From Prochlorococcus sp. AG-449-P16 (GTDB lineage Bacteria > Cyanobacteriota > Cyanobacteriia > PCC-6307 > Cyanobiaceae): 64,000 nt of DNA. Positions 60,885-63,935 of this stretch are shown piece by piece. The first letter of the stretch is position 1; every line of letters starts with the position of its first letter. The stretch lies in contig QCQN01000004.1 in the NCBI GenBank assembly GCA_003212175.1, forward strand, positions 10,506-74,505, given 5' to 3'. The position numbers and the translations under genes were made by a program. Below the pieces are notes generated by a model that ran no database searches, was not told where the DNA came from, and saw nothing but the letters and a program-made list of their open reading frames with translations.

Positions 60885-61766
60885 TTATTTAATATTAGCA
60901 AGACAATTATCTAACCCTAACTTGTAGTTTTTATAAATAAGTTTATATCCTAATTGATTACATAATAATTTATTTGAAACTTTCCTATTCTCTATCCAAA
61001 ATGATTGAGCTATGGGAGATAAATCTTTTTTTGCTTCTTCAAAGAGTATGGGTTTGGGCATTTGCAATCCAAGTATTTTGTATGCATATTTAATTACCTC
61101 TAGTTGAGAACAGGGCTTATCATCTGCAATATTAATAATTTGATGAAAATCTAATTTATTTTGATTTTTTAATAAATAAATAATTGCATTTGTTATGTCA
61201 GCTACATGTATTCTCGAAAATATTTGATTGTTTTTATGAATGATTTTTACCCTTTTACTTTTTATAGCCTCTAAAGAAGATCTCCCAGGACCATAGATAC
61301 CAGGTAATCTAAAAATTTGCACAGGCAATTTAGAATTAATCCATTCATTTTCACAATTTAAGCGTCTATGACTTCTTTCTTGAAAAGGGTTAGGCTTATC
61401 ATTCTCTGATACCCAGTTTCCATTGGTGTTTCCATACACTCCAGTTGTTGAAAGATATCCAATCCATTTAATGGGTAAATCTCTAATTGTATTTTTAAAG
61501 CTTTTTAATACAGGATCTTTACCATTTTTGTCTGGTGGTATGCAGCTTAAAATATGCGTAACTCCTTTAAAGACTTCTGAATCAGGCATTGAATTATTTT
61601 CACTATCAAATATAAAACTATCTGGATCATTTTTTTCAGAACGAGAGCTTGTCAGAGCCTTACATCCTAATTTTCTGATTGATTTTGCAAAATAATCTCC
61701 ACTAAAACCTCCTCCAAAAATAATAAATTTATTATTACTAAAAACTGAGGTTGCTAAATTAATCAT
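60885..61766 (-). CDS. NAD-dependent epimerase/dehydratase (atypical SDR)
   Basis: FGGGFSG, YLSTTGVYG, RLPGIYGPGR and SRIHVADI motifs. Confidence 0.9.
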   Translation of the reverse strand: MINLATSVFSNNKFIIFGGGFSGDYFAKSIRKLGCKALTSSRSEKNDPDSFIFDSENNSMPDSEVFKGVTHILSCIPPDKNGKDPVLKSFKNTIRDLPIKWIGYLSTTGVYGNTNGNWVSENDKPNPFQERSHRRLNCENEWINSKLPVQIFRLPGIYGPGRSSLEAIKSKRVKIIHKNNQIFSRIHVADITNAIIYLLKNQNKLDFHQIINIADDKPCSQLEVIKYAYKILGLQMPKPILFEEAKKDLSPIAQSFWIENRKVSNKLLCNQLGYKLIYKNYKLGLDNCLANIK

Positions 61767-61779
61767 TTTCCATTATAAC

Positions 61780-61795
61780 TAGTACAAATGTATTA
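61780..61795. promoter_or_regulatory. LexA (SOS) box in divergent promoter
   Basis: TAGTACA-AA-TGTATTA is one mismatch from the palindrome TAGTACA-N2-TGTACTA; it lies between TTGTAA and TATAAT on the minus strand and overlaps TATTAT on the plus strand. Confidence 0.7.
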
Positions 61796-61803
61796 TTACA
61801 AAA

Positions 61804-62040
61804 ATGAAGACAATAATTAAGCCTCGAGCTGAATTTAATACAATTACCCTTAGAAATGATGTTTATCATTGCCAAGATAATTTAACTAATCCAAAAATTG
61901 GATTTGATATTAAACTCTATCAAAAATTATTTCTGGTTTTGCTATCATTGTTTATTTTTTTAATATTTCCAGAATCACCAAAAAATTCTCAAGATATCTG
62001 TTATAAAAATAATTCAGTCAAGGCTTGCAATATTTGGTAG
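61804..62040 (+). CDS. Small single-pass membrane protein with C-terminal C-x8-C-x2-W
   Basis: 78 aa; TM segment LFLVLLSLFIFLIF followed by PESP...ICYKNNSVKACNIW. Confidence 0.75.
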   Translation: MKTIIKPRAEFNTITLRNDVYHCQDNLTNPKIGFDIKLYQKLFLVLLSLFIFLIFPESPKNSQDICYKNNSVKACNIW

Positions 62041-62445
62041 TCATGCGGCTTTATATTCATTATCTGTGTCTTTGAAATTTTTATTATTTTTTTGTTTGTA
62101 ATTAGGATTCGCCCATTGTAATAACCTTATTGCTAACCTAAGATCTCCCTCTAACCATGCTCTTATAGCCATTGCTCTTCTGGGATCATAAAATTTTTGT
62201 CTTCTGTACCAGTACAAAGCATTATTGTCTGATTTGTCTCCATTGCATGAAAGGCATGCTGGGACGCAGTTTTCTGTTGTACTTAATCCTCCTTGGCTTC
62301 TAGGTAGTATATGATCAATAGATTCGGAAGGGTTGCCACAATATATACAACTTTTTCCGGTAAACTTATGAATTGATTTTCGCCATTGTCTGAACTTAAA
62401 TTTAGGACATAAGTCTTCTAAAAAGACCGCATCTTTATTGTGCAT
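62041..62445 (-). CDS. HNH endonuclease family protein
   Basis: CIYCG...SIDHILPRSQGG....NCVPACLSCNGDK. Confidence 0.92.
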   Translation of the reverse strand: MHNKDAVFLEDLCPKFKFRQWRKSIHKFTGKSCIYCGNPSESIDHILPRSQGGLSTTENCVPACLSCNGDKSDNNALYWYRRQKFYDPRRAMAIRAWLEGDLRLAIRLLQWANPNYKQKNNKNFKDTDNEYKAA

Positions 62446-63740: not shown

Positions 63741-63935
63741 ATGGCTTCACAAATTTTTAAAGGTAATAAAAATCCTATAAAAAAGAAATTTTCTTTTTTT
63801 GAGGGTGGACATCAACTAGAAAAGTTAGAGTTTGCTCTTGCTGTTGCTCAAACTAAGGGTGATCAAGAACTATCTTTAAAGTTAAGAAAAAAGATAGTTG
63901 AATTAGGAGGAAATGTTGAGGAACCTGGAACTTAG
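63741..63935 (+). CDS. Small conserved hypothetical protein
   Basis: 64 aa, ATG start; EGGHQLEKLEFALAVA...LGGNVEEPGT. Confidence 0.75.
   Translation: MASQIFKGNKNPIKKKFSFFEGGHQLEKLEFALAVAQTKGDQELSLKLRKKIVELGGNVEEPGT

What the first reader, a model, noticed from the sequence alone, without database searches (positions are those of the whole stretch)
61767..62040. LexA-box-controlled 78-aa single-pass membrane protein: candidate SOS cell-division checkpoint inhibitor
Seen: TAGTACAAATGTATTA (61780-61795) is one mismatch from a perfect TAGTACA-N2-TGTACTA palindrome. It ends 8 nt before the ATG of an unannotated 78-aa ORF and overlaps its likely -10 (TATTAT, 61791-61796). The protein has a soluble N-terminus, one TM helix and a short C-terminal tail with C-x8-C-x2-W, a possible exported disulfide. 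Established: this motif is the cyanobacterial LexA operator (RGTAC-N3-DGTWCB). In several phyla the SOS division inhibitors are unrelated, lineage-specific small membrane proteins (Staphylococcus SosA, Bacillus YneA, Caulobacter SidA, Corynebacterium DivS). Inference: this ORF may be the equivalent DNA-damage checkpoint effector in marine picocyanobacteria, which face daily UV stress.
Basis: partly seen in the sequence, partly recalled or inferred. Interest (0 to 1): 0.72.

Follow-up and report, generated by a model that had tools for sequence, protein, structure and literature searches.

The report
SOS-induced picocyanobacterial membrane microprotein
A small, misnamed membrane-protein gene found in nearly all Prochlorococcus-type cyanobacteria sits behind a conserved LexA-type (DNA-damage repressor) box; its counterparts are strongly switched on by UV and mitomycin C in published data, and it may be their still unidentified brake on cell division, which is untested.

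Summary
The box and the 78-aa ORF are real. The box lies in a 37-bp gap between this ORF and a divergent epimerase-like gene. It is kept in 61 of 61 orthologous loci examined while the protein falls to 20-57% identity. The family occurs in at least 188 of 200 Cyanobiaceae genomes; no credible match was found in 227 other cyanobacteria.

The gene is annotated, under spurious names ('TFIID', 'serine protease inhibitor'). Li et al. 2010 already predicted the box, but tabulated it mainly under the epimerase.

A conserved -35 faces the small gene. Published supplements show its syntenic counterparts induced by mitomycin C (CC9311, log2 +2.75; epimerase +0.40) and by UV (WH7803 up to +3.9; PCC9511 +1.9). 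SOS membership is therefore well supported.

The division-inhibitor role rests on analogy only: SosA-like anatomy, the only membrane protein among box-proximal genes, and no LexA box on the cyanobacterial 'sulA'. The scan had not noted this gene before, only analogous candidates in other phyla.

Verdict: probable SOS gene (~0.9); possible division brake (~0.4).

The parts
61780..61795 (.). LexA-type operator (near-palindrome)
   Evidence: same 16-mer apart from one spacer base in 21 of 21 same-genus loci, core kept in 40 of 40 others; same site ranked 2nd in Li 2010 tables for several genomes
61804..62040 (+). 78-aa predicted single-pass membrane protein: variable N-terminus (predicted cytoplasmic), TM helix about 38-56, conserved PExP-x5-IC-x8-C-x-VW tail (predicted outside)
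   Evidence: tail dN/dS 0.24-0.27; family named TFIID / serine protease inhibitor in NCBI
61751..61779 (+). candidate promoter of the small gene: TTGCTA, 17 nt, TATAAC, directly upstream of the box (inferred; no start site mapped)
   Evidence: TTG..-17-TA.. in 21 of 21 same-genus loci; TTGAC invariant in 40 of 40 other loci, TTGACA in 39 of 40
61772..61801 (-). overlapping promoter-like site for the epimerase-like gene (TTGTAA-18-TATAAT) with the box in its spacer
   Evidence: 10 of 12 consensus matches; perfect TATAAT kept in only 6 of 21 loci
60885..61766 (-). divergent NAD-dependent epimerase-like gene (293 aa), followed by pdxA; shares the operator region
   Evidence: listed as a LexA regulon member in 18 genomes by Li 2010
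62041..62445 (-). convergent HNH-domain gene whose stop abuts the small gene's stop
   Evidence: zero-base gap in 21 of 21 same-genus loci; HNH found beside the gene in 60 of 61 fetched loci

Best explanation
This is a conserved picocyanobacterial gene for a predicted single-pass membrane protein behind a conserved LexA-type box; its counterparts are induced by UV and mitomycin C in published data, and it likely acts as a damage-induced brake on late cell division. Shown: box, coding selection, family-wide synteny, published induction. Inferred with high confidence: LexA binds the box and blocks the promoter facing the small gene until RecA-triggered cleavage; the divergent epimerase promoter is probably partly co-repressed. 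Inferred with low confidence: the protein inserts N-in/C-out in the cytoplasmic membrane, its tail is closed by a C66-C75 disulfide, and the TM end plus tail bind the septal synthase FtsW/FtsI, as YneA does and SidA and SosA are reported or predicted to do, pausing constriction while DNA is repaired.
For: Box in 61 of 61 loci plus 3 of 3 genus-g22 loci. The -35 faces the small gene and is invariant at wobble positions of variable epimerase codons. CC9311 mitomycin C: sync_0036 log2 +2.75, 17th of 715 up-regulated genes, above lexA 2.51, umuC 2.25 and recA 1.48; epimerase +0.40. WH7803: +3.1 to +3.9 after 1-6 h of UV in high-light cells, where the epimerase is 0; r = 0.74 with lexA over 28 stress columns against 0.15 for the epimerase. 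PCC9511: PMM0030 +1.91 (adj. p 0.04) at 20:00 under UV, a comparison in which the text counts only 4 changed genes; epimerase +0.08. Only TM-like product among box-proximal genes at 7 and 8 exact-pattern sites in two complete genomes. The cyanobacterial 'sulA' (YfcH family) has no box in 5 of 5 genomes. Anatomy resembles the 77-aa SosA, whose membrane-proximal outer part is also the conserved part.
Against: No sequence, family or fold link to any division inhibitor. TM residues are poorly conserved, whereas YneA uses its TM helix to bind FtsW. Not adjacent to lexA, unlike the Gram-positive inhibitors. In PCC9511 the UV phenotype is a delayed S phase with lowered dnaA/ftsZ/sepF transcription and no obvious growth loss, which needs no membrane inhibitor. 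No cell-size change 2 h after mitomycin C (short against the generation time). SYNW0037 is not among the WH8102 significant genes (array coverage not checked). The protein could sit in thylakoids.
Confidence: 0.4

Rival explanations
1. A LexA-controlled, damage-induced membrane protein with a job other than division: for example adjusting envelope or thylakoid electron flow, lowering membrane potential for dormancy (TisB/DinQ-like role, recalled), or assisting DNA uptake for recombinational repair.
For: Same regulatory evidence as the main reading. dprA is reported as a UV-induced, suggested LexA-regulon gene in WH7803. The UV phenotype is a replication delay. The conserved part is the disulfide-type tail, not the TM helix.
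Against: No family or fold hint for any such role. Size and bitopic anatomy match the known SOS division inhibitors. Not induced by high light alone in WH7803.
Confidence: 0.42
2. The box mainly represses the divergent epimerase-pdxA unit, as Li 2010's conserved-regulon table lists it; the small gene is a passenger.
For: The box touches the epimerase ATG in 31 of 40 loci. The best promoter-like site in the window points at the epimerase. The epimerase rises under UV in low-light WH7803 (to +2.35) and slightly in CC9311 and PCC9511.
Against: The small gene responds more strongly and more specifically in all three data sets. The invariant TTGAC faces the small gene. The epimerase persists without a box in 5 of 5 genomes checked, 4 of them from the genus where the small gene is not found; those 4 also lack the exact motif genome-wide, so this is weak.
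Confidence: 0.08
3. The purpose of the induced transcript is antisense interference with the abutting convergent HNH gene; the protein is secondary.
For: Zero-base gap in 21 of 21 same-genus loci, overlap in 10 of 40 others; no terminator found; HNH falls (-0.65) under mitomycin C in CC9311.
Against: Purifying selection on the tail and invariant P59, C66, C75. The HNH gene is up, not down, in WH8102, is 422 bp away in one locus and was not found in the fetched stretch of another.
Confidence: 0.05

Closest known systems
SosA of Staphylococcus aureus (PMC6851548, passages read)
   Same: 77 aa; LexA-controlled; one TM helix; conserved membrane-proximal extracellular C-terminus; no LysM domain; lineage-restricted
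   Different: no sequence similarity detected; sosA is divergent from lexA; its TM helix is near the N-terminus; the inhibitory activity and CtpA turnover of SosA are shown, here untested; a Cys pair is invariant here
YneA of Bacillus subtilis, ChiZ, SidA (PMC13396833, passages read)
   Same: small damage-induced membrane proteins; FtsW is the shown or predicted target and the natural first test here
   Different: YneA and ChiZ carry a LysM domain; YneA binds FtsW through its TM helix, which is variable in this family; no homology found
Predicted LexA regulon of Prochlorococcus and marine Synechococcus (Li et al. 2010, PMC3091678; Kolowrat et al. 2010, PMC2921402)
   Same: this very site is listed: rank 2 for PMT9312_0030, A9601_00291 and P9301_00291; rank 2 in MED4 under PMM0029-pdxA; the epimerase is second only to recA in the conserved-member table
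   Different: the small gene is absent from the conserved-member table, carries the name TFIID, and was not recognised as a membrane-protein family or given a role
Cyanobacterial 'SulA' (slr1223; taken here as YfcH/TIGR01777, recalled), proposed as the SOS division inhibitor in PMC5101192
   Same: proposed for the same role in these organisms
   Different: soluble epimerase-fold family; no LexA box within 500 bp upstream in 5 of 5 genomes; unrelated to this protein

Membership tests
Picocyanobacterial LexA (SOS) regulon | operator matching TAGTACA-N2-TGTACTA over a promoter | tested here: met
Picocyanobacterial LexA (SOS) regulon | operator conserved in orthologues | tested here: met
   61 of 61 loci plus 3 of 3
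Picocyanobacterial LexA (SOS) regulon | induction by DNA damage, parallel to lexA | tested here: met
   published supplement rows for three strains; orthology by gene order and names, not by sequence; WH8102 tag not listed
Picocyanobacterial LexA (SOS) regulon | direct LexA binding and repression | not testable with these tools
   needs EMSA/ChIP or a lexA mutant; lexA not found in this 64%-complete genome
SOS membrane division inhibitors (SosA/YneA/ChiZ/SidA kind) | small single-pass membrane protein with extracytoplasmic C-terminus | tested here: met
   prediction only: one hydrophobic segment in 61 of 61 (KD max 1.38-3.18); more K/R on the N side in 47, equal in 9, fewer in 5; helix 36-54
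SOS membrane division inhibitors (SosA/YneA/ChiZ/SidA kind) | gene next to lexA (Gram-positive members) | tested here: not met
   neighbours are the epimerase and HNH genes; not required for SidA (recalled)
SOS membrane division inhibitors (SosA/YneA/ChiZ/SidA kind) | sequence or domain homology (e.g. LysM) | tested here: not met
   no Pfam or NCBIfam family above cut-off in 48 members; PDB profile search best E 1.6
SOS membrane division inhibitors (SosA/YneA/ChiZ/SidA kind) | binds FtsW or another late divisome protein | not tested
   complex prediction not available
SOS membrane division inhibitors (SosA/YneA/ChiZ/SidA kind) | overproduction blocks division; protease turnover permits recovery | not testable with these tools
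   bench test
TATA-binding protein (TFIID) / squash serine protease inhibitor (database names) | match to the corresponding Pfam family | tested here: not met
   0 of 48 members match either at E up to 0.1; names

The most novel reading that the evidence does not exclude
This family is the DNA-damage division checkpoint effector of Prochlorococcus, marine Synechococcus and Cyanobium: an independently evolved, disulfide-tailed FtsW inhibitor that is pulsed at dusk and under UV to hold division until repair ends, the first such inhibitor in cyanobacteria.
Probability: 0.35. Interest if true: 0.75.

Novelty: new member of a known kind. Interest (0 to 1): 0.52.

Why it matters
Prochlorococcus and marine Synechococcus are thought to run an E. 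coli-like SOS response, and a UV cell-cycle checkpoint has been discussed without an effector. The gene usually cited as 'sulA' has no LexA box in the five genomes checked. This misnamed near-core gene is among the strongest damage-induced genes in three published data sets. It is the obvious first knockout and overexpression target, and a compact marker of DNA damage in ocean metatranscriptomes whatever its function proves to be.

Tried and rejected
Complex prediction with FtsW (alignments A5 and A4): tool not available; no result either way.

ESM Atlas: not completed with hits.

Structure: the AlphaFold model is weak (pLDDT 66, pTM 0.30); Foldseek gave 0 matches and VIA-align a best Z of 3.1, which is uninformative.

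Phage origin: no match in 50,697 phage records or in viral contigs.

Start-site mapping: only contigs were available; 1 of 4 runs laid on a relative's locus, uninformative. The TSS paper and Blot 2011 are not held.

Homologues outside Cyanobiaceae: 13 of 227 genomes gave partial hits at E 0.0055-0.05, treated as noise and not inspected.

Long 'fused' representatives: one is a 20-fold repeat and several look like chimeric assemblies; dropped.

Rejected: the TFIID and protease-inhibitor names; TATTAT as the conserved -10.

Literature searches found no paper on this gene's function. One listing (PMC1838522) contains 'PMM0030' once and was not read. Subscription papers, Li 2010's .doc tables and the bioRxiv MED4 LexA iModulon supplement were not seen and may name the gene.

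Full report
OBSERVATION. The window's genes match those of a Prochlorococcus-like genome (about 31% GC, 64% complete). The 16-mer at 61780-61795, the 8-nt gap and the 78-aa ORF at 61804-62040 are as described. Alone the site is only modestly unlikely: 13 of 100 shuffles reach one site at up to 2 mismatches, and the exact degenerate motif is not enriched genome-wide. The genome has 5 sites within 2 mismatches, all upstream of ORF starts, one of them recA. lexA itself was not found in this incomplete assembly.

CONSERVATION. Orthologues were found in 20 of 24 same-genus genomes. All 21 loci, this one included, carry the same 16-mer apart from one spacer base, while the proteins are 35-44% identical to ours. 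A profile found the family in 177 of 200 Cyanobiaceae genomes. Of the 23 misses, 20 were retested with a core profile and 11 matched, 2 of them short fragments; 9 did not (7 of genus g23, 1 g33, 1 g54); 3 were not retested. I fetched 40 of the 164 hits outside the window's genus, chosen for genus spread. All 40 have the box; the divergent epimerase was seen in all 35 rows displayed, 5 being cut from view; HNH lies beside the gene in 60 of 61 loci. Three g22 loci show the same layout. In a class-wide draw 23 of 23 family genomes matched at E 3e-13 or better; 13 of 227 others gave only weak partial hits.

WHICH GENE THE BOX SERVES. In the 40 non-g1 loci TTGAC is invariant (TTGACA in 39) 14 nt before the box, on the strand of the small gene. 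It lies in epimerase codons whose amino acids vary, with wobble bases fixed, and persists where the epimerase ATG has moved, so the constraint is on the DNA. The hexamer 17 nt on (TACANN) is not a canonical -10, so the exact promoter is inferred. In the window a minus-strand TTGTAA-18-TATAAT also brackets the box, so both promoters may be covered. Four g23 genomes and one outside genome keep the epimerase with no box. Two g23 genomes checked keep lexA, but 4 of 4 have no exact motif anywhere: the gene is missing where the boxed regulon is missing, a single lineage event.

PRIOR KNOWLEDGE. Li et al. 2010 (PMC3091678; passages and supplement S6 rows read) predicted this site: rank 2 for PMT9312_0030, A9601_00291 and P9301_00291 ('possible TFIID'), rank 2 in MED4 under PMM0029-pdxA, and 18 genomes under 'NAD dependent epimerase' in the conserved table, which omits the small gene. 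Family members are named 'transcription factor TFIID' or 'serine protease inhibitor' in NCBI; no Pfam or NCBIfam family supports either name.

EXPRESSION (published supplement rows; locus tags tied to this family by gene order, box position and names, not by sequence). CC9311, mitomycin C (PMC3744912; passages, section 12, supplement part 1 and rows): sync_0036 log2 +2.75, 17th of 715 up-regulated genes; lexA 2.51, umuC 2.25, recA 1.48, epimerase 0.40, HNH -0.65. In a later block, presumably ethidium bromide (header not seen), it is +1.07. SYNW0036 and SYNW0037 are not in the WH8102 lists. PCC9511, UV (PMC2921402; passages and rows): PMM0030 +1.91 at 20:00 (adj. p 0.041), +1.12 at 22:00 (not significant after adjustment), no significant change at 15:00 or 18:00; epimerase +0.08 at 20:00 and +0.49 at 18:00. 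WH7803 (PMC7393227; passages and rows): 1.6/3.1/3.3/2.8 under UV in low-light cells and 0/3.1/3.9/3.9 in high-light cells; 0 under high light; not raised by cold; one +1.8 on day 3 of heat; diel peak at 18 h at 21 C, like lexA. The epimerase reaches 2.35 under UV in low-light cells but is 0 in high-light cells. Correlation with lexA over 28 stress columns is 0.74 against 0.15 for the epimerase (columns are not independent).

PROTEIN. Lengths run 55-119 aa (median 76), all variation being N-terminal. Each has one hydrophobic segment and a 21-26-residue tail; K/R bias favours N-in in 47 of 61. Across 48 sequences P59, C66 and C75 are invariant and P56, W78, V77 and E57 nearly so, while TM columns vary. 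Tail dN/dS is 0.24-0.27; the N-terminus is 0.40 and 1.24 in the two groups. The disulfide is inferred. The model shows a TM helix and two short helices at low confidence, with no fold or sequence match.

FUNCTION. Known SOS division brakes outside E. coli are unrelated small membrane proteins acting late, several on FtsW (PMC13396833, PMC6851548; passages). In two complete genomes the exact motif marks 7 and 8 sites; this gene's product is the only box-proximal one with a TM-like segment (KD 1.8; other small proteins 1.2 or less; RecA 1.46), though the exact pattern misses sites such as umuD. The 'sulA' proposed for these organisms (PMC5101192, passages) has no box in 5 of 5 genomes. Against: no homology, variable TM helix, no lexA linkage, a UV phenotype explained by replication delay and lower ftsZ/sepF transcription, and no size change at 2 h of mitomycin C. 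The FtsW complex could not be predicted, so binding is open. I put SOS membership near 0.9 and the division-brake role near 0.4, about level with all other membrane roles taken together.

NOVELTY. The site and the expression rows are in print; the reassignment to the small gene, the family definition and the candidate role were not found in nine literature searches, within the library's limits. PMC9426592 and the bioRxiv MED4 iModulon paper were read as passages only and added nothing on this gene.

Noticed in passing
G000:C6:26686, C6:23662, C20:3438, C1:100220: Other LexA-type boxes in this genome: before a 68-aa soluble protein, an 82-aa ORF, a 102-aa protein that begins like the DUF1651 proteins of relatives, and recA.
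   Followed up: partly
L142:1523-1750, L135:1520-1747, L139:1529-1756: A 76-aa Cys-rich soluble protein without a Pfam match sits behind a perfect LexA box in 3 of 3 genomes scanned; possible metal-binding SOS protein.
   Followed up: no
window 61774-61780; L135, L142; non-g1 loci: Several LexA-boxed promoters have TA-N4-T instead of TA-N3-T about 17-18 nt after the -35; unexplained.
   Followed up: no
G046, G085, G111, G177 (genus g23): No exact RGTACANNTGTAYY site in 4 of 4 genomes although the two checked keep a full lexA; the operator may have diverged or the regulon collapsed.
   Followed up: partly
G084:C9:58356, G045:C11:240973, G110:C15:30161: In genus g22 a LexA-peptidase-domain gene (probably umuD, inferred) lies about 3 kb from this locus.
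   Followed up: no
window 62038-62043: Small gene and HNH stop codons abut with no gap and no terminator; in 10 of 40 other loci the HNH frame overlaps the gene end by a fixed 55 bases.
   Followed up: partly
window 63741-63935: 64-aa ORF without a Pfam match next to an AbrB-family membrane gene and a DUF6554 gene.
   Followed up: no
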